A stretch of DNA of 64,000 nucleotides from the human T2T-CHM13v2.0 reference genome, Homo sapiens. Under the pieces are notes generated by a model. That model ran no database searches. It saw only the letters and a program-made list of their open reading frames with translations, and was not told the DNA's origin. Shown here one piece after another: positions 2,736 through 58,141 of this stretch (position 1 is its first letter; the number at the start of each line of letters is the position of its first letter). Where the stretch lies: NCBI RefSeq assembly GCF_009914755.1, contig NC_060932.1, one strand, 5' to 3'. A program made the translations under genes and the position numbers.

Positions 2736-4295
2736 TCCAAGGGCTTGAACATTTCTTGACTTGTTGGCAATCCAAATCGTTACGTCTCCGAAACAGAGTT
2801 GACTGAGGGGACCGCAGGGCTGGGCAGGACCTTTGACTTCCTATACATCCACAGGAGCAAGAAAACCTCAGCCCCACTCTACCAACACGCACCTAGTAAA
2901 ATTCCGCCAACCGCATCTCACGCACGCTAACACGTGGGGAGCGTTGCTTGCACCACGAGTCCCCATTTGGCTCAACCGCCGATGCCAAGTGTGTGGTTCC
3001 AGTTGCGACGGCCCCCCGTGAAGTGGCTTCCGGATGTGCGAAGGAACCAGGCAGAGTTTCACTGGCCAAATAGACCCCAGCAAAGCTGAAGTTAACTCCC
3101 ACATTTGGGATGTACTTCAGAGGTAAAACATTCATCCCGTCTTCTTTCCGGATGTCTGACACCATGGTTCTCCCCCTAATCCTAAGAGTAGCTGAGGCAG
3201 AGACTCACTGAAAGATCTAGGCGGGGATATCCCATCATGCACAGGCTCTCTCCATTCTCTGACCTGGGAACAACTCTCAGCAGGATTCCACATCTAGGAG
3301 GCCTCGGAACTCAGCGGGATTTTCTGAGACACACCAACTGGCTGCTCCCTCTCCGCCGCTGTTGAGGGTCGTTATCTTGATTATCCAGATCACCTAGAAA
3401 GTATCCGTATCCAGAATGAATAAGATCAACTCTCTGCTCCTCTGACAGCAGAAGGAGCAGGACCGTAAGGAACCAAAGAGCGTGGAAGGAAACGATGTGA
3501 CAGGAAAGCTCAGAGAACGGCCACAGGGGGTCGTCAGCAGGCCTTCCAACCTGAATCATGAATAATTAATGAAGCGCAAATCAAAGGGGACTCGAGTTTC
3601 AGCAGGAGCAATTCATCCAACGGGAGATCGCCGGAGGGCCAACAAGATTGAGTGACTGGGAGCCGGGTGCAGTGTCAAAGGGGACGCGACTGGTTCCAAA
3701 GCTCGAGAAGACCATGGGGTCACTTGGGCTACATGAGAAAACGCCCCAGTGTGCTGGTTCATCATTCCGACTCCTGCCTGTCTCTTCCCGTCCAAGGAAC
3801 ATGGACCCTAAGTCGTGCAGGTGCGGATGACCATGGGCAGAATTAGGGGCCGTGGCACAAAAGTTCACCGACACGGGAGTTCCACAGAAGGTGCGGTGGA
3901 TCTTCGCAAATCCAGAGACATGGCAATGGGACCCAGGGAATTACAGCCTCACAGGCGTCCGGGAGACTTTTCAGGCATAATGCCTGGAGTCGCAAGAGGA
4001 GCTGAAAAAGGAGCCAGGCACTGAAGGACAAAGCGTTGTTGACTTTCCTCATCTGTGTTTCCCAGTGCGGTCCAATTCACGGTGGTTTCCAAGCGCCTCC
4101 TGGGGGAGAAAACACATGAGGGTGCGGTCAGGGTTCTCTGCTGACAGACTTACCTTGGGGAAGAAAGAGAAGCTCTGAAGATGGATCATGGCCGTGACTG
4201 CATGTCAAGGAGAGTCTCCTTGATGACACTGAGGCCTACGTCGAGATAGACAAAATGTGGTCCAATTAAAAGGTGTCTATTTTACCACATTTTTT

Positions 4296-4325
4296 AAAAC
4301 AAAACAAAACAAAACAACAAAAAAG
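4296..4325 (+). repeat. (AAAAC)n microsatellite upstream of the promoter; 4 units in copies 1-7, 5 units at ~57832
   Basis: taaaacaaaacaaaacaaaacaacaaaaaa. The extra unit explains the 7,653-bp last period (two further 1-bp indels cancel out). Confidence 0.9.
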
Positions 4326-4483
4326 ATGGAAAAGAAGACAGGGGTACAGGCATCAGTGTTACATGTCTGACGGGGAACATCTATTGTTCAAAGCTTGCAG
4401 CTGTACAAGTAGGTTTTAGAATGTCTGTCAGCAGTGGACATGATCTTAGAGTGGGCTGTGCAGATAGACCTTTCCAGGTCATG

Positions 4484-4600
4484 TAATTGGATTAAGTTAA
4501 TTGCAATTAAGGTACAGGTAACTGATTAGGTTAGGGTACGTTCCATGTCAGGTGACCAGAGGCAGTATGAAAGGCAGCCTGGAAAGCGGAGGTCCCTCTC
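4484..4600 (+). promoter_or_regulatory. Putative FAM90A core promoter (G1): homeodomain sites + DUX4-type motif + variant TATA (TATGAAAG)
   Basis: TAATTGGATTA 4484-4494; palindrome TTAATTGCAATTAA 4497-4510; TGATTAGGTTA 4523-4533; TATGAAAG 4566-4573; pyrimidine-rich start region ~30 nt downstream. Confidence 0.7.
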
Positions 4601-4708
4601 TGCCCCTTCCTCCGTCGTCCTGGATGCTGCATCGCTTCCAGCCGGGCTGCTGCAGCACCTGCCCATCTCAGCGCCAGCCTGGGAAAGAAAGTAGACGTGT
4701 AATTTCAG
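4597..4708 (+). other. Candidate first non-coding exon of FAM90A (one per unit; start approximate)
   Basis: Begins ~30 nt after the TATA box and ends at CAG|GTTGGT (CAG|GTTAGT in G8). The ATG-containing exon has its own acceptor at 5669/5670, which implies an upstream exon. Confidence 0.5.
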
Positions 4709-5166: not shown

Positions 5167-5725
5167 GTAACTTCTCTGTATGAATTTGTGCTTGGAAGTT
5201 GCCTAATGAAATGGCAAGAGTAGCGATTCAAGTTGTCACAGGAAGCATCCCTTATCCGTGACTTCAAGCAGACCTGCCAAAGGGTGGCACACGCCATGCC
5301 CTGTGTCTTCGATCATTCTGTCCGTCAAGGGAGATAGAATCACCGTGTCTTCTACCGGAGTGAATCGTGAGAGACCTAAGTCCAGTCTCCAGAATCAGTT
5401 GTTTGTTTGGGGTTGAAAGCTCAACCCCCCCATACCTAGGCCACGGGCCCTGTGGCAGGTGGGGTTTACTCTTGGACTAGGTAGTCATGGCAGAGGAACA
5501 CACAATATCCGAGGATGCGCACAGCACATTGTGTTCTACAGATTTGACCGACTGGTGGTGAGGTCTCCTCATGACCACACAGGCAGGGAGTTAGCAGGTG
5601 GCTTCCTGTGGGTGTGTGAATATCCAACGTGCTTAACCATCGACATGTGTGTGTTTGTGTGTGTTTCAGGTGGCCCAACAGTCCACCCCTGAAAAAGGCG
5701 GTCATAAAACCCCCAGGAGACGAAG

Positions 5726-8700
5726 ATGATGGCACGTCGGGACCCCAAATCTTGGGCCAAGAGACTGGTGAGAGCCCAGACCCTCCAGAAGCAGCGGAGG
5801 GCCCCAGTTGGGCCAAGGGCTCCCCCGCCCGATGAAGAAGATCCCAGGGTAAGTGTAGCCCTGGATCTCTTGGGTATCGGGGTGGGGGTGGGGACGGGGG
5901 GAGGGGCTGTCCCACGGTCCTCAGAGACTGGGTTGGATTCCAAAGAGTTCTGTCACCACCAGCCAGGTTGCTTTTCCCATCCAAGGTGGGCGTGGCTTGG
6001 GACCTTCTCCCCGGCCCGATAGGTCCCTTGAGAGACTCTTGGGGGCAACCTCCCTTTCTACTTAGAGTCCTGTGTAGCCATGTTTGGCTGCGTTGTTGAC
6101 ATCGGCTTCACCATCGTGCCCCTTGGAACCTTGAGTCCTTCCTTTCAGAGTTCCTCCGTCACATGGGCTTTGCGAGGGAACATCGTATCCGAACTCTCCC
6201 AGCACTTAACGGCCCCCATGCCGGTGTCCCCTCTTTGGAATCCTTATTCAGCTCTGAATTCACAATCCGTCCCAATGTTGACGTGGGATCGCTGCCTGTG
6301 GCTTCAGCTCACTCACTGACATCACTTCCTTTCCACCCGCAGCTCAAGTGCAAAAACTGCGGGGCCTTTGGCCACACGGCCAGAAGTACCAGGTGCCCCA
6401 TGAAGTGCTGGAAGGCAGCCCTGGTTCCAGCGACCTTGGGGAAAAAGGAAGGGAAGGAAAACCTGAAACCATGGAAGCCCCGGGGTGAAGCCAACCCGGG
6501 GCCCTTGAACAAGGATAAGGGAGAGAAGGAAGAGAGACCAAGGTGAGCAGTGGGAGGGGTTTTCACCACTCTTAGGGTACGGCCTCCCAAGGACATGGTG
6601 TCTCTGCACCTGCACACCGTGTGCCTTTCCGTCTCCGGGCCAGGGAAGGAACGCTGCAGAGAAATAGGCCGGAGCTCCGTGTCCTCCGGGGTTCCACACC
6701 CAGGAGCTCCTTGGGCTCTGGGAGATTCAGGGACGGGGAGAGGCGGGGGCGCTTCGTGCAGGTTCCCCACGACAGCGGGAAAAGCGATGGAATCCAAATC
6801 ACAGTCCTTAGTTGGGAAGCCTAGAGGGCCACCTGGAGGATGGGAAGGTTGGCACGTGAGGGAAGGTGCAGAGGCGGAAAGGGCACCAGATGTCCATTTC
6901 TGTATCACAAAACACGGAATGGGGCTGGGCCCCAGACGGGGTTCTCCCTGTCTCCTGGGGAAAACCAGGGGGCACGGCCTGACCTTCTTCTGTTCTGCAG
7001 GCAACAAGACCCGCAGAGGAAGGCTCTCCTCCACATGTTTTCCGGGAAACCTCCAGAGAAGCCGCTGCCGAATGGAAAAGGATCCACGGAATCTTCTGAT
7101 TATCTGAGGGCGAGTGTCACCCCGGGCCCCTGGTCTTTTTCTCCTCTAGGTCACCCTGGTTGATTTCCTTTCAGCTTCCCGTCTGCGGGAGGAAATCGGG
7201 GAACCCCTCTTTCTTGCCTTCTTGGGGTCAGGGACTCCACGATCCTTCCAGGTCAATTGGATTCCAGGCGAAGGCATCTGAACATGCCGTATTTCCTGTT
7301 GCTTTCTTTCTGTCCAATTATGGCAAGCCTGCCAACAACACGTTCCTAGCGGCATGAGGAAATTAGTCCCTCAGAGGCCCCAAACGTGGAGAAGGCGAAA
7401 CCCAGGAACATGCATGTGTTCAGAGAAGACGTCCCGAGTACCCTTGAGCCAGCAACCTGCCTTGGGAAGGGCATTAGTCCGTTCCACTTCATGGAAGGCT
7501 GAGTGGAGGCGCTTTGATCCAGTTAATGCCCAAGACGCGATCTTTTGAACAATGGTGTGCTTAGATCAGCTACACATAGCTCGAGAGCGCATCTTTCATG
7601 TGTCTTGTCCTGATCAGCACTCAGGTGGAGGGTCTGTCCCTACTTCCAAGGACCGCCTGTCGATACTGTACTAAGAATTTCATGGCGTGTGCACCTTGTC
7701 TTTGGATGTGCTTGATTTTCACGTTGGCTCCATGCTGAGGAACTTCTAACCTGTGTTGTTTCCTCTCTTTCAGGTTGCAAGCGGGCCAATGCCGGTCCAC
7801 ACAACCAGTAAGAGGCCGCGCTTGGACCCTGTCCTCGCTGATCGCTCAGCTACCGCAATGTCTGGCAGGGGCTCCGTCTTGGCTTCACTGTCTCCCCTCA
7901 GAAAAGCCAGCCTGAGCTCCTCCTCAAGTCTTGGACCAAAGGAAAGACAGACAGGGGCTGCGGCCGACATGCCTCAGCCTGCAGTCAGGCACCAGGGCCG
8001 CGAGCCTCTCCTCGTGGTGAAGCCGACACACAGCCGCCCCGAGGGTGGCTGCCGAGAAGTTCCCCAGGCTGCCTCCAAAACCCACGGCCTGCTCCAGGCC
8101 GCCAGACCCCAGGCACAAGACAAACGTCCTGCGGTGACCTCACAGCCCTGCCCGCCAGCCGCCACACACAGCTTGGGCCTAGGCTCCAATCTCAGCTTCG
8201 GGCCAGGAGCCAAGAGACCTGCCCAGGCTCCGATTCAGGCTTGCCTGAACTTCCCCAAGAAACCGAGACTGGGTCCCTTCCAGATCCCCGAAAGCGCCAT
8301 CCAGGGAGGTGAGCTGGGGGCCCCGGAGAATCTCCAACCTCCGCCAGCCGCAACCGAACTTGGACCAAGTACGTCGCCCCAGATGGGCAGGAGGACACCG
8401 GCCCAGGTGCCCAGCGTCGACCGGCAGCCTCCGCACAGCACACCTTGCCTGCCTACTGCCCAGGCCTGCACCATGTCCCATCACTCAGCGGCCAGCCATG
8501 ATGGGGCCCAGCCTCTCAGAGTGCTCTTCCGGAGACTGGAAAACGGACGCTGGAGCTCCAGCCTCCTGGCGGCCCCCTCATTTCACTCTCCTGAGAAGCC
8601 GGGAGCCTTCCTCGCTCAGAGCCCTCATGTGTCAGAGAAGTCTGAGGCTCCCTGTGTTCGTGTCCCACCGAGCGTCCTCTATGAGGACCTTCAGGTTTCC

Positions 8701-12131: not shown

Positions 12132-12248
12132 TAATTGGATTAAGTTAATTGCAATTAAGGTACAGGTAACTGATTAGGTTAGGGTACGTTCCATGTCAGG
12201 TGACCAGAGGCAGTATAAAAGGCAGCCTGGAAAGCGGAGGTCCCTCTC
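12132..12248 (+). promoter_or_regulatory. Putative FAM90A core promoter (G2), canonical TATAAAAG
   Basis: DUX4-type motif 12171-12181; TATAAAAG 12214-12221. Confidence 0.75.
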
Positions 12249-19779: not shown

Positions 19780-19896
19780 TAATTGGATTAAGTTAATTGC
19801 AATTAAGGTACAGGTAACTGATTAGGTTAGGGTACGTTCCATGTCAGGTGACCAGAGGCAGTATAAAAGGCAGCCTGGAAAGCGGAGGTCCCTCTC
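19780..19896 (+). promoter_or_regulatory. Putative FAM90A core promoter (G3), canonical TATAAAAG
   Basis: DUX4-type motif 19819-19829; TATAAAAG 19862-19869. Confidence 0.75.
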
Positions 19897-27427: not shown

Positions 27428-27544
27428 TAATTGGATTAAGTTAATTGCAATTAAGGTACAGGTAACTGATTAGGTTAGGGTACGTTCCATGTCAGGTGAC
27501 CAGAGGCAGTATAAAAGGCAGCCTGGAAAGCGGAGGTCCCTCTC
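27428..27544 (+). promoter_or_regulatory. Putative FAM90A core promoter (G4), canonical TATAAAAG
   Basis: DUX4-type motif 27467-27477; TATAAAAG 27510-27517. Confidence 0.75.
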
Positions 27545-35075: not shown

Positions 35076-35192
35076 TAATTGGATTAAGTTAATTGCAATT
35101 AAGGTACAGGTAACTGATTAGGTTAGGGTACGTTCCATGTCAGGTGACCAGAGGCAGTATGAAAGGCAGCCTGGAAAGCGGAGGTCCCTCTC
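35076..35192 (+). promoter_or_regulatory. Putative FAM90A core promoter (G5), variant TATGAAAG
   Basis: DUX4-type motif 35115-35125; TATGAAAG 35158-35165. Confidence 0.7.
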
Positions 35193-42723: not shown

Positions 42724-42840
42724 TAATTGGATTAAGTTAATTGCAATTAAGGTACAGGTAACTGATTAGGTTAGGGTACGTTCCATGTCAGGTGACCAGA
42801 GGCAGTATGAAAGGCAGCCTGGAAAGCGGAGGTCCCTCTC
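42724..42840 (+). promoter_or_regulatory. Putative FAM90A core promoter (G6), variant TATGAAAG
   Basis: DUX4-type motif 42763-42773; TATGAAAG 42806-42813. Confidence 0.7.
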
Positions 42841-50371: not shown

Positions 50372-50488
50372 TAATTGGATTAAGTTAATTGCAATTAAGG
50401 TACAGGTAACTGATTAGGTTAGGGTACGTTCCATGTCAGGTGACCAGAGGCAGTATGAAAGGCAGCCTGGAAAGCGGAGGTCCCTCTC
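50372..50488 (+). promoter_or_regulatory. Putative FAM90A core promoter (G7), variant TATGAAAG
   Basis: DUX4-type motif 50411-50421; TATGAAAG 50454-50461. Confidence 0.7.
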
Positions 50489-56271: not shown

Positions 56272-58024
56272 TCCAAGGGCTTGAACATTTCTTGACTTGT
56301 TGGCAATCCAAATCGTTACGTCTCCGAAACAGAGTTGACTGAGGGGACCGCAGGGCTGGGCAGGACCTTTGACTTCCTATACATCCACAGGAGCAAGAAA
56401 ACCTCAGCCCCACTCTACCAACACGCACCTAGTAAAATTCCGCCAACCGAATCTCACGCACGCTAACACGTGGGGAGCGTTGCTTGAACCACGAGTCCCC
56501 ATTTGGCTCAACCGCCGATGCCAAGTGTGTGGTTCCAGTTGCGACGGCCCCCCGTGAAGTGGCTTCCGGATGTGCGAATGAACCAGGCAGAGTTTCACTG
56601 GCCAAATAGACCCCAGCAAAGCTGAAGTTAACTCCCACATTTGGGATGTACTTCAGAGGTAAAACATTCATCCCGTCTTCTTTCCGGATGTCTGACACCA
56701 TGGTTCTCCCCCTGATCCTAAGAGTAGCTGAGGCAGAGACTCACTGAAAGATCTAGGCGGGGATATCCCATCATGCACAGGCTCTCTCCATTCTCTGACC
56801 TGGGAACAACTCTCAGCAGGATTCCACATCTAGGAGGCCTCGGAACTCAGCGGGATTTTCTGAGACACACCAACTGGCTGCTCCCTTTCCGCCGCTGTTG
56901 AGGGTCGTTATCTTGATTATCCAGATCAACTAGAAAGTATCCGTATCCAGAATGAATAAGATCAACTCTCTGCTCCTCTGACAGCAGAAGGAGCAGGACC
57001 ATAAGGAACCAAAGAGCGTGGAAGGAAACAATGTGACAGGAAAGCTCAGAGAACGGCCACAGGGGGTCGTCAGCAGGCCTTCCAACCTGAATCATGAATA
57101 ATTAATGAAGCGCAAATCAAAGGGGACTCGAGTTTCAGCAGGAGCAATCCATCCAACCGGAGATCGCCGGAGGGCCAACAAGATTGAGAGACTGGGAGCC
57201 GGGTGCAGTGTCAAAGGGGACGCGACTGGTTCCAAAGCTCGAGAAGACCATGGGGTCACTTGGGCTACATGAGAAAACGCCCCAGTGTGCTGGTTCATCA
57301 TTCCGACTCCTGCCTGTCTCTTCCCGTCCAAGGAACATGGACCCTAAGTCGTGCAGGTGCGGATGACCATGGGCAGAATTAGGGGCCGTGGCACAAAAGT
57401 TCACCGACACGGGAGTTCCACAGAAGGTGCGGTGGATCTTCGCAAATCCAGAGACATGGCAATGGGACCCAGGGAATTACAGCCTCACAGGCGTCCGGGA
57501 GACTTTTCAGGCATGATGCCTGGAGTCGCAAGACCAGCTGAAAAAGGAGCCAGGCACTGAAGGACAAAGCGTTGTTGACTTTCCTCATCTGTGTTTCCCA
57601 GTGCGGTCCAATTCACGGTTGTTTCCAAGCGCCTCCTGGGGGAGAAAACACATGAGGGTGCGGTCAGGGTTCTCTGCTGACAGACTTACCTTGGGGAAGA
57701 AAGAGAAGCTCTGAAGATGGATCATGGCCGTGACTGCATGTCAAGGAGAGTCTCCTTGATGACACTGAGGCCTACGTCGAGATAGACAAAATGTGGTCCA
57801 ATTAAAAGGTGTCTATTTTACCACATTTTTTAAAACAAAACAAAACAAAACAAAACAACAAAAAAGATGGAAAAGAAGACAGGGGTACAGGCACCAGTGT
57901 TACATGTCTGACGGGGAACATCTATTGTTCAAAGCTTGCAGCTGTACAAGTAGGTTTTAGAATGTCTGTCAGCAGTGGACATGATCTTAGAGTGGGCTGT
58001 GCAGACAGACCTTTCCAGGTCATG

Positions 58025-58141
58025 TAATTGGATTAAGTTAATTGCAATTAAGGTACAGGTAACTGATTAGGTTAGGGTACGTTCCATGTCAGGTGACCAG
58101 AGGCAGTATAAAAGGCAGCCTGGGAAGCAGAGGTCCCTCTC
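58025..58141 (+). promoter_or_regulatory. Putative FAM90A core promoter (G8), canonical TATAAAAG
   Basis: DUX4-type motif 58064-58074; TATAAAAG 58107-58114. Confidence 0.75.

What the first reader, a model, noticed from the sequence alone, without database searches (positions are those of the whole stretch)
4484..4573. Every unit has a DUX4 / paired-homeobox promoter cassette: a candidate amplified embryonic-genome-activation module
Seen: within 50 bp of an otherwise GC-rich unit lie four elements. They are a TAAT-N3-ATTA site (4484-4494), an overlapping GGATTAAGTTA (minus strand TAACTTAATCC, containing the K50 motif TAATCC), a perfect 14-bp palindrome TTAATTGCAATTAA, and TGATTAGGTTA (minus strand TAACCTAATCA). 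The last motif ends 32 bp before the TATA box. The cassette is invariant in all 8 copies, including the diverged G8. Established: TAAYYYAATCA is the DUX4 double-homeodomain consensus; TAAT-N3-ATTA is the paired-class homeodomain dimer site; TAATCC is bound by K50 homeodomains such as OTX2 and LEUTX. From recall, FAM90A transcripts are among DUX4-induced genes. Inference: the array is a multi-copy, burst-activated cleavage-stage/germline gene battery, like the PRAMEF, TRIM43 and MBD3L arrays, with output scaled by copy number.
Basis: partly seen in the sequence, partly recalled or inferred. Interest (0 to 1): 0.8.

Follow-up and report, generated by a model that had tools for sequence, protein, structure and literature searches.

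The report
FAM90A promoter with DUX4 binding sites
Each repeat unit carries the FAM90A gene family's own TATA promoter with a perfect binding site for DUX4, the factor that switches on the human embryo's genome, so dozens of near-identical copies probably fire together, although this was seen directly only for single-copy relatives.

Summary
Two corrections apply. The "TATA box" is TATGAAAG in 4 units and TATAAAAG in 4. Invariance among units that are 98.9-99.9% identical says nothing.

Better evidence comes from elsewhere. The 28-mer around the DUX4 site is exact in 57 of 57 chr8/chr12 FAM90A copies. The block pair GATTAGGTTAG-N22-34-CAGTATAAA occurs 50 times in the genome, only at FAM90A loci. 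Two of these are the far-diverged chr19 FAM90A27P/28P, whose promoters otherwise align no better than shuffles.

Published tables show DUX4 induction of FAM90A1, 27P and 28P. They also show a DUX4 ChIP peak in unique sequence used as a promoter for FAM90A2P.

I read the cassette as the family's ancestral DUX-responsive TATA promoter. It has one optimal-type DUX4 site, two overlapping near-consensus sites and a non-coding first exon. Activation of the tandem copies themselves, and scaling with copy number, remain unshown, because those studies dropped multi-mapping reads. It is a new member of a known kind and of moderate interest.

The parts
4484..4494 (+). TAATTGGATTA. It is a TAAT-N3-ATTA (P3-type) site. 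Read on the minus strand it is TAATCCAATTA, one mismatch (position 10) from the DUX4 consensus.
   Evidence: The AATTA-ending variant class (FRG2 site TAACCTAATTA) gave about 3-fold DUX4 activation against 8-fold for the optimum (PMC4730607). DUXA recognises TAAT---ATTA weakly (PMC10514451).
4489..4499 (-). TAACTTAATCC on the minus strand. It is one mismatch (position 11) from the DUX4 consensus and contains the K50 core TAATCC. It overlaps the previous site by 6 nt, so the two exclude each other for one protein.
   Evidence: An AATCC-ending SELEX motif (TAATTCAATCC) bound DUX4 and was active (PMC4730607). LEUTX is a K50 factor with GGATTA/TAATCC (PMC9978639).
4497..4510 (.). 14-bp palindrome TTAATTGCAATTAA (TAAT-N4-ATTA). 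It takes the position of TGATTGCATCA in chr19 copy c19a.
   Evidence: It is broken in chr12 FAM90A1 (TTAATTGTAATTAA), so it is the least constrained element.
4523..4533 (-). Perfect DUX4 site TAACCTAATCA, with the central CTA of the optimum TAATCTAATCA.
   Evidence: It is exact in 57 of 57 chr8/chr12 copies and is the only perfect consensus in each of four 9-kb paralogue loci. It is retained in chr19 c19a. Consensus and optimum come from PMC12376486 and PMC4730607.
4566..4573 (+). TATA box. It is TATGAAAG in this unit (derived variant) and TATAAAAG in 4 of 8 window units and in all outgroup copies.
   Evidence: Position 4569 is G in 9 and A in 44 of the 53 tandem copies.
4596..4708 (+). Inferred non-coding first exon. 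The start is inferred about 30 nt after the TATA box. The end is the donor CAG|GTTGGT at 4706-4708|4709.
   Evidence: The donor is conserved in chr12 and the dispersed copies (CAG|GTTAGT). It lies at a similar distance in chr19: TATA to donor is 140, 133 and 128 nt. The TSS itself is not shown.
5670..5848 (+). Exon carrying the start codon (ATG at 5726). It is preceded by the acceptor tgtgtttcag| at 5660-5669.
   Evidence: The CDS is from the supplied annotation. That exon 1 joins here is inferred.
12132..12221 (+). Cassette copy, unit 2 (TATAAAAG).
19780..19869 (+). Cassette copy, unit 3 (TATAAAAG).
27428..27517 (+). Cassette copy, unit 4 (TATAAAAG).
35076..35165 (+). Cassette copy, unit 5 (TATGAAAG).
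42724..42813 (+). Cassette copy, unit 6 (TATGAAAG).
50372..50461 (+). Cassette copy, unit 7 (TATGAAAG).
58025..58114 (+). Cassette copy, unit 8 (the diverged unit; TATAAAAG).

Best explanation
The cassette is the ancestral, family-specific core promoter of the FAM90A genes, built as a DUX-family response element. One optimal-type DUX4 site (minus-strand TAACCTAATCA, 4523-4533) lies 32 nt upstream of a TATA box. Two overlapping near-consensus sites lie 34-39 nt further upstream.

Proposed mechanism (inferred). DUX4, present at the 4- to 8-cell stage or misexpressed in FSHD muscle, binds the perfect site. A second molecule binds one of the upstream sites, giving the synergy known for paired sites. 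TATA-directed initiation follows near 4596. The transcript starts with a roughly 110-nt non-coding exon that is spliced from the donor at 4708|4709 to the acceptor at 5669|5670, ahead of the ATG at 5726. DUXA, and K50 PRD-like factors at TAATCC, may later compete or modulate.

By sequence, all 53 tandem copies and the 4 dispersed copies are equally competent, so the 8p23.1 arrays should respond as a block. Nine copies with TATGAAA may respond more weakly.

Shown: motif anatomy, copy census, the deep-paralogue footprint, and published DUX4 binding or induction for single-copy paralogues. Inferred: binding at the array copies, TSS position, splicing of exon 1, and dosage scaling.
For: 1. Motifs are present and non-random. 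Three of the 4 DUX4-consensus matches with at most 1 mismatch in the 7.6-kb unit lie in the cassette. All are in one orientation.

2. The 28-mer with the DUX4 site is exact in 57 of 57 copies (56 on chr8 plus chr12 FAM90A1) and occurs nowhere else.

3. GATTAGGTTAG-N22-34-CAGTATAAA has 50 genome hits: 47 on chr8, 1 on chr12 and 2 on chr19 (FAM90A27P/28P loci). There are none elsewhere and none in the reversed control. Chr19 and chr8 copies align only in coding pieces at 75-85%. Outside the two blocks their promoters align no better than shuffles. This is a footprint on the DUX site and the TATA box, and the spacing to the first donor is also kept.

4. c19a carries two further TGAT-N3-ATCA sites directly upstream. 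These are the only such sites in its 9.9 kb.

5. The element is not a multi-copy transposon at BLAST level. There were 57 candidates, all FAM90A, and 2 for the chr19 promoter. It is labelled 'Unique' in Young 2013.

6. Literature.
- FAM90A1 rose 5.5x and 11.8x after DUX4 transfection and is flagged as a prior Geng-2012 target.
- FAM90A27P and 28P went from 0-1 reads to 88-298 nanopore reads after DUX4.
- FAM90A1 marks DUX4-pulse clusters and the 8CLC signature. FAM90A1, 25P and 27P are in the E3 embryo list.
- The FAM90A1 probe was 128x higher in day-3 embryos than in trophectoderm.
- A DUX4 ChIP peak is linked by spliced reads to FAM90A2P: 79 and 114 reads against 0 and 0, ratio 313.
- In each paralogue locus the cassette site is the only perfect consensus.

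7. Variant site classes like the two upstream sites are bound or active, and two sites are about 20x more potent than one.
Against: - No datum shows binding or transcription at the tandem copies. The ChIP study removed multi-mapping reads.
- The nanopore table of induced genes lists only the chr19 members, neither FAM90A1 nor array copies.
- Tohonen 2015 supplements contain no FAM90A among embryo 5'-end clusters.
- In siDUX4 embryo cells, FAM90A1 counts are too sparse to read: 1 of 15 knock-down and 2 of 12 control cells had counts.
- I could not map the hg19 peak coordinates onto the cassette.
- Within the chr8/chr12 family the cassette is no better conserved than its flanks: 94-98% per 100 bp against 92-99%. 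Zero variable columns in the 27 motif positions, against 16 of 161 locally, is only suggestive.
- There is no canonical initiator at 4593-4606.
- Four of 8 units here have TATGAAA.
- c19b has CGATTAGGTTA, which is not a consensus site, although the table names both chr19 genes as induced.
Confidence: 0.7

Rival explanations
1. The promoter is DUX-competent by sequence, but the tandem 8p23.1 copies are kept silent, for instance by heterochromatin or methylation of the array. The published FAM90A signal would then come only from single-copy members (FAM90A1, 2P, 25P, 27P, 28P), and the array cassette would be inherited baggage without dosage effect.
For: - Only single-copy members appear in the tables searched.
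- No array member appears in the nanopore list of induced genes.
- Derived weakening changes are present in array copies: TATGAAA in 9 of 53, a GC donor in intron 3 in 8 of 8 window units, and exon-1 donor GTTGGT in 19 of 53.
Against: - Absence from the lists is what read filtering and annotation of near-identical copies would produce anyway.
- The DUX site and its flanks, 4466-4568, are free of any variant in 53 of 53 tandem copies.
- The coding frame is open.
- The FAM90A1 array probe and short reads may already include cross-mapping array transcripts. This is an inference.
Confidence: 0.2
2. The main drivers are other homeodomain proteins rather than DUX4: K50 PRD-like factors (LEUTX, TPRX, OTX2, PITX) at TAATCC, or paired-like dimers on the P3 site. 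DUXA may occupy the sites as a repressor. The DUX4 induction would then be indirect.
For: - The TAAT-N3-ATTA and TAATCC elements are present.
- LEUTX is a K50 factor with a GGATTA/TAATCC site.
- DUXA binds TAAT---ATCA, TGAT---ATCA and, more weakly, TAAT---ATTA, and competes with DUX4.
- DUX4 does not act on single TAAT half-sites or on TAATTA.
Against: - The element kept between the chr19 and chr8/12 promoters is the DUX4-type site, not TAATCC or the P3 site.
- A DUX4 ChIP peak drives FAM90A2P.
- Induction occurs within 12-24 h of DUX4 transfection in myoblasts.
- FAM90A does not occur in the main text of the LEUTX paper. Its supplements were not searched.
Confidence: 0.08
3. The cluster is a chance AT-rich patch next to a TATA-like sequence and has no regulatory role. 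FAM90A transcription starts elsewhere, for example further upstream as in some FAM90A1 annotations (recalled, not checked).
For: - Nine of 300 shuffles reach the same TAAT/ATTA density.
- There is no canonical initiator.
- Conservation is no higher than in the flanks within the chr8/12 family.
Against: - The two-block architecture is exclusive to FAM90A loci genome-wide, across paralogues that are otherwise unalignable.
- A splice donor is conserved at a matching distance.
- A published DUX4-bound promoter exists for FAM90A2P.
Confidence: 0.02

Closest known systems
Direct DUX4 target promoters with clustered sites (ZSCAN4, FRG2), as dissected in PMC4730607 and the FRG2 study it cites
   Same: It has one consensus TAAYBBAATCA plus nearby variant sites close to the start site. 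Orientation-independent action and synergy between two or more sites would be expected. There is DUX4 induction and a ChIP peak for a family member.
   Different: Here the promoter is copied at least 57 times with the site intact. No reporter or mutational test exists for it. The upstream sites deviate at position 10 or 11 and overlap each other.
Multi-copy cleavage-stage/DUX4 gene arrays (PRAMEF, TRIM43/48/51/64, RFPL, MBD3L2), named among the top DUX4-induced genes in PMC5323140
   Same: It is a primate-expanded tandem gene family listed beside these genes in DUX4 and day-3 embryo tables. FAM90A is one of three families with more than 50 paralogues in T2T-CHM13, together with DUX4 and USP17.
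   Different: Activation of the array copies themselves is not documented. I did not examine the promoters of those other families here, so likeness of architecture is untested.
DUX4-bound MaLR/ERVL LTRs acting as alternative promoters (Young 2013, PMC3836709)
   Same: A DUX4-bound region used as a previously unannotated promoter, in the same supplementary table.
   Different: It is not a retroelement by the tests possible here. The table calls the peak 'Unique', and genome searches return only FAM90A copies. An old, eroded transposon origin cannot be excluded without a repeat library.
36-bp Alu-borne embryo genome activation motif of Tohonen 2015 (PMC4569847)
   Same: It is a proposed PRD-like homeodomain element in promoters of genes switched on at the 4- to 8-cell stage.
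   Different: That motif lies within Alu elements. The FAM90A cassette returns only FAM90A copies in genome searches, and no FAM90A entry is in that paper's supplements. The motif's letters were not available, so there was no sequence comparison.

Membership tests
Direct DUX4 target promoter | Contains a match to the ChIP-derived consensus TAAYBBAATCA | tested here: met
   TAACCTAATCA on the minus strand at 4523-4533, in 8 of 8 units against 0.15 expected per 64 kb. Consensus as quoted in PMC12376486.
Direct DUX4 target promoter | DUX4 occupancy in ChIP or CUT&Tag at the site | not testable with these tools
   A published peak exists only for the paralogue FAM90A2P. Multi-mapping reads were removed. 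I could not place the peak's hg19 coordinates on the cassette.
Direct DUX4 target promoter | Transcript induced when DUX4 is expressed | tested here: inconclusive
   Published for FAM90A1, 2P, 27P and 28P. No entry for the tandem copies of this window appears in any table searched.
Direct DUX4 target promoter | Reporter activity depends on the motif | not testable with these tools
   No reporter data were found. The searches were FAM90A+DUX4 (9 papers, 7 listed), FAM90A (141 papers, 40 listed) and FAM90A+ZSCAN4 (2 papers).
Paired-class P3 homeodomain dimer site | Palindromic TAAT-N3-ATTA | tested here: met
   TAATTGGATTA at 4484-4494. It is invariant in 57 of 57 chr8/chr12 copies. Chr19 copies have TGATTAGATCA or TAATTAGATCA instead.
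Paired-class P3 homeodomain dimer site | Cooperative dimer binding by a paired-like homeodomain protein | not testable with these tools
   No binding data. The family definition is recalled, with a mention in PMC4730607's discussion.
K50 homeodomain (OTX/LEUTX-type) site | TAATCC/GGATTA core | tested here: met
   GGATTA at 4489-4494 is the only GGATTA on the plus strand per unit. TAATCC also occurs 10 times elsewhere in the window, so a 6-mer alone is weak evidence. The LEUTX site is from PMC9978639.
LTR (MaLR/ERVL)-derived DUX4 promoter | Belongs to a dispersed multi-copy retroelement family | tested here: not met
   The genome search with 4400-4700 gave 57 candidates, and the 40 scored were all chr8 FAM90A copies. 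The chr19 promoter has 2 copies only. It is 'Unique' in Young 2013 Table S4. No repeat library was available, so old eroded elements are not excluded.
TATA-box core promoter | TATAWAAG-type box about 30 nt upstream of a start site, followed by an exon | tested here: inconclusive
   TATAAAAG is present in 48 of 57 copies and TATGAAAG in 9. A donor is conserved 128-140 nt downstream in all lineages. No 5'-end data were seen.

The most novel reading that the evidence does not exclude
The 8p23.1 FAM90A arrays (53 tandem promoters in this genome, copy-number variable in people) are a large DUX4-fired gene battery that standard unique-mapping analyses cannot see. They would deliver a copy-number-dependent pulse of a zinc-knuckle protein at embryonic genome activation and in FSHD muscle.

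The promoter would also be an old triple DUX-family response element whose half-sites have tracked the changing specificity of DUX proteins. The chr19 lineage has TGAT-N3-ATCA sites, while the chr8/12 lineage has TAAT-type sites, parallel to the primate-specific TAAT preference of DUX4 homeodomain 1.
Probability: 0.3. Interest if true: 0.65.

Novelty: new member of a known kind. Interest (0 to 1): 0.45.

Why it matters
FAM90A is one of only three human gene families with more than 50 paralogues in the complete genome, together with DUX4 itself and USP17. Its function is unknown.

If all tandem copies answer to DUX4, then a sizeable, copy-number-variable part of the DUX4 and 8-cell programme has been undercounted, because the reads are discarded as multi-mapping. 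That bears on FSHD biomarker sets and on person-to-person differences at genome activation.

The cassette also gives a compact natural test object: one perfect and two imperfect DUX sites, plus a natural TATA A/G allele.

The gene-level link to DUX4 is already in published tables, so this refines a known programme rather than revealing a new mechanism.

Tried and rejected
- **Invariance in the window as evidence of constraint.** Rejected, because the units are 98.9-99.9% identical.
- **Footprinting within the chr8/chr12 family.** The cassette bins are 94-98% identical, like the flanks. The 57-copy alignment has no variant in the 27 DUX-like motif positions, against 16 of 161 columns locally. 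That is roughly a 6% chance, so only suggestive.
- **Alignment of chr19 and chr8/12 promoters outside the two anchor blocks.** It is not better than shuffles: 1532, 447 and 1661 of 2000 shuffles reach the score. A MAFFT run even misplaced the DUX site. Homology of the upstream sites is therefore argued from position only.
- **Transposon origin.** No other genomic copies were found. No repeat library was available.
- **Two chr2 matches to the 29-mer (3 mismatches).** Unrelated sequence.
- **Tohonen 2015 supplements.** No FAM90A.
- **Vuoristo 2022 supplements.** Only sparse FAM90A1 counts.
- **Young 2013.** The second pass over all 19 found one row.
- **Papers not held.** Bosch 2007 (the FAM90A family paper), and Geng 2012 under the id I tried. 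Statements about them are recalled or second-hand.

Full report
**Observation**

The window holds eight 7,648-bp FAM90A units.
- TAATTGGATTA (4484-4494 in unit 1);
- the overlapping GGATTAAGTTA (4489-4499);
- the palindrome TTAATTGCAATTAA (4497-4510);
- TGATTAGGTTA (4523-4533).

Each occurs once per unit. The last one reads TAACCTAATCA on the minus strand, a full match to the DUX4 ChIP consensus TAAYBBAATCA (consensus as quoted in PMC12376486, passages). It ends 32 nt before a TATA-like box at 4566.

Dinucleotide-preserving shuffles of the window expect 0.15 DUX4 matches and 0.06 TAAT-N3-ATTA matches per 64 kb. The eight hits are one event copied eight times, so the fair comparison is one hit against about 0.02 and 0.007 per unit.

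The 50-bp block has GC 0.28 in a unit of GC 0.54. It holds 5 of the unit's 29 TAAT/ATTA cores and is the densest such window; 9 of 300 shuffles reach that density. Of the four matches to the DUX4 consensus with at most one mismatch in the unit, three lie in the cassette. All are in the same orientation.

**Corrections to the observation**

The box at 4566-4573 is TATGAAAG in four units (those with cassettes at 4484, 35076, 42724 and 50372). It is TATAAAAG in the other four, including the diverged last unit. The stated span is therefore not invariant.

Invariance of the motif block carries no weight. Units 1-7 differ from each other at 2-3 of 1,700 positions around the cassette. Unit 8 differs at 85 of 7,606 aligned columns.

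**Census in the whole genome**

The window's own assembly can be searched.
- A 29-mer from the 5' half of the cassette (up to 3 mismatches) gives 59 hits:
  - 53 exact hits in four chr8 arrays;
  - three dispersed chr8 copies and chr12 FAM90A1, each with 2 mismatches;
  - two unrelated chr2 hits (checked).
- The 28-mer around the DUX4 site is exact in 57 of 57 FAM90A copies and occurs nowhere else.
- Homology between the tandem unit and the chr12 and dispersed copies starts near 3979, about 500 bp upstream of the cassette. It runs through the gene at 92-99% per 100 bp.
- The cassette bins (94-98%) are no better conserved than the flanks.
- In an alignment of all 57 copies, 16 of 161 columns vary between 4440 and 4600. 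None falls in the 27 positions of the three DUX-like 11-mers, and one falls in the palindrome (4504, chr12). That is suggestive only.
- TATAAAAG is the ancestral state. It is present in chr12, in all three dispersed copies and in 44 of 53 tandem copies. TATGAAAG occurs in 9 copies of the 11.7-11.9 Mb array.

**The informative comparison: chr19**

A degenerate zinc-knuckle pattern found two further family members on chr19. These are evidently FAM90A27P and 28P. They align to the chr8 unit only in coding pieces, at 75-85%.

Both nevertheless carry GATTAGGTTAG, then 27-28 nt, then GCAGTATAAA upstream of the gene. Genome-wide, GATTAGGTTAG-N22-34-CAGTATAAA occurs 50 times: 47 on chr8, 1 on chr12 and 2 on chr19. 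It occurs nowhere else, with 0 hits for the reversed control.

Outside these two blocks, the chr19 and chr8/12 promoters align no better than shuffled sequence. The DUX-type site and the TATA box therefore behave as footprints in otherwise decayed sequence.

A CAG|GTTRGT donor follows the TATA box at 140, 133 and 128 nt in the window, c19a and c19b. This argues for a shared non-coding first exon.

Copy c19a has two more double-homeodomain sites directly upstream, TGATTAGATCA and TGATTGCATCA. These are the only T[AG]AT-N3-AT[TC]A matches in its 9.9 kb. Copy c19b has TAATTAGATCA. By position they correspond to the window's TAATTGGATTA and TAATTGCAATTA. That correspondence is inferred, not shown by alignment statistics.

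The element is not a dispersed repeat by the tests available.

**What is in print**

From tables and supplements:
- FAM90A1 rose 5.5- and 11.8-fold in DUX4-transfected myoblasts and is flagged as a target already reported by Geng 2012 (PMC5323140, table passages and legend).
- The FAM90A1 probe was 128-fold higher in day-3 embryos than in trophectoderm (PMC3382239, table passage).
- FAM90A27P and 28P went from 0-1 to 88-298 nanopore direct-RNA reads after DUX4 induction (PMC8120133, Table S2).
- FAM90A1 marks the DUX4-pulse 'Intermediate' and blastomere-like clusters (PMC9287684, Table S3).
- FAM90A1 is in the 8-cell-like signature. FAM90A1, 25P and 27P are in the E3 embryo list (PMC8901440, supplements).

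[quoted passage not shown] It lists a peak in 'Unique' sequence at hg19 chr8:12034213-12034610. Spliced reads join it to FAM90A2P: 79 and 114 reads with DUX4, 0 and 0 without, ratio 313 (PMC3836709).

FAM90A2P is presumably one of the three dispersed chr8 copies. In each of those loci, and at chr12, the cassette site is the only perfect consensus in 9 kb. I could not map the hg19 coordinates.

**Results against, or silent**
- That ChIP study discarded multi-mapping reads, so it cannot speak for the arrays.
- The nanopore table lists no array copy and no FAM90A1.
- Tohonen 2015 supplements hold no FAM90A.
- Counts in siDUX4 embryos are too sparse to read.
- No paper's main text discusses FAM90A as a DUX4 or genome-activation module. 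FAM90A with DUX4 gave 9 papers (7 listed). FAM90A alone gave 141 (40 listed). FAM90A with ZSCAN4 gave 2.

**Mechanism**

DUX4 binding studies (PMC4730607, abstract and passages) report the following:
- The optimum is TAATCTAATCA.
- C is positively selected at position 4.
- Action is independent of orientation.
- The FRG2 site ending in AATTA gives about 3-fold activation against 8-fold for the optimum.
- A SELEX site ending in AATCC is bound and active.
- Single TAAT half-sites and TAATTA are inert.
- Two sites are about 20-fold more potent than one.

Measured against these results, the window's 4523-4533 site has the optimal central CTA. The two upstream, mutually overlapping sites belong to the tolerated variant classes.

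I therefore propose, as inference, that DUX4 binds the perfect site plus one upstream site. TATA-directed initiation then occurs near 4596. A roughly 110-nt exon is spliced from 4708|4709 to the acceptor at 5669|5670, ahead of the ATG at 5726.

DUXA binds TAAT---ATCA and TGAT---ATCA equally, binds TAAT---ATTA more weakly, and competes with DUX4 (PMC10514451, summary and passages). LEUTX is a K50 factor with GGATTA/TAATCC (PMC9978639, passages). Either may modulate the cassette, but nothing here shows it.

**Comparison and novelty**

The cassette works like the clustered-site DUX4 promoters of ZSCAN4 and FRG2. The family belongs beside the PRAMEF, TRIM, RFPL and MBD3L arrays in the DUX4 tables.

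It is not an LTR promoter by the tests possible. It is not the Alu-borne 36-bp motif of Tohonen 2015.

The gene-level link is already public, though only in tables. New here are:
- the motif-level anatomy;
- the 57-of-57 census;
- the footprint shared with chr19;
- the TATA A/G split.

FAM90A is one of three families with more than 50 paralogues in T2T-CHM13 (bioRxiv 10.1101/2024.09.26.615256, passage). An unseen array response would therefore matter for DUX4 and 8-cell expression accounting.

**Verdict**

This is a real feature. Its DUX4-responsive character is well supported for the family. Activation of the array copies and dosage scaling are unproven.

Noticed in passing
window 4569 and the same place in each unit (12217, 19865, 27513, 35161, 42809, 50457, 58110): There is an A/G split inside the TATA box. 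TATGAAAG occurs in 9 of 53 tandem copies genome-wide, all in the 11.7-11.9 Mb array, with 4 of them in this window. TATAAAAG occurs in the other 44 and in chr12 and the dispersed copies. This is a natural allele series for promoter strength.
   Followed up: partly
window 7110-7111 and the same place in all 8 units: The donor of the third coding intron is GC (GAGG|GCGAGT) in 8 of 8 window units. It is GT (GAGG|GTGAG) in chr12 FAM90A1 and the three dispersed chr8 copies. This is a lineage-specific GT-to-GC donor change in the tandem subfamily.
   Followed up: partly
window 4712 (exon-1 donor, position +4): The donor reads GTTGGT in 19 and GTTAGT in 34 of the 53 tandem copies. Chr12 and the dispersed copies have GTTAGT.
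   Followed up: no
window about 3979: This is the upstream breakpoint of homology between the tandem unit and the chr12 and dispersed copies. Upstream of it the tandem unit has its own sequence, with about 50% apparent identity, meaning none. The origin of unit segment 1089-3978 was not examined.
   Followed up: no
L014:2200-2600 versus L015 (chr19 pair): The two chr19 copies lie in inverted orientation about 19 kb apart. Their promoter stretch is only 76% identical, while neighbouring stretches are 90-98% identical. One copy has CGATTAGGTTA in place of TGATTAGGTTA and lacks the middle site.
   Followed up: partly
L010, L011, L012 (dispersed chr8 copies), at the start codon and the zinc knuckle: The dispersed copies read ATGACG where the tandem copies and chr12 read ATGATG. 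L010 and L012 also differ by two bases in the zinc-knuckle codons. The third copy, L011, did not match the pattern within two mismatches. Chr12 differs by one base.
   Followed up: no
window 4300-4325 and 57832-57865: An (AAAAC)n-like run lies about 160 bp upstream of the cassette. It is longer in the last unit, where the tandem repeat finder reports it. This accounts for that unit's 5-bp longer spacing.
   Followed up: no
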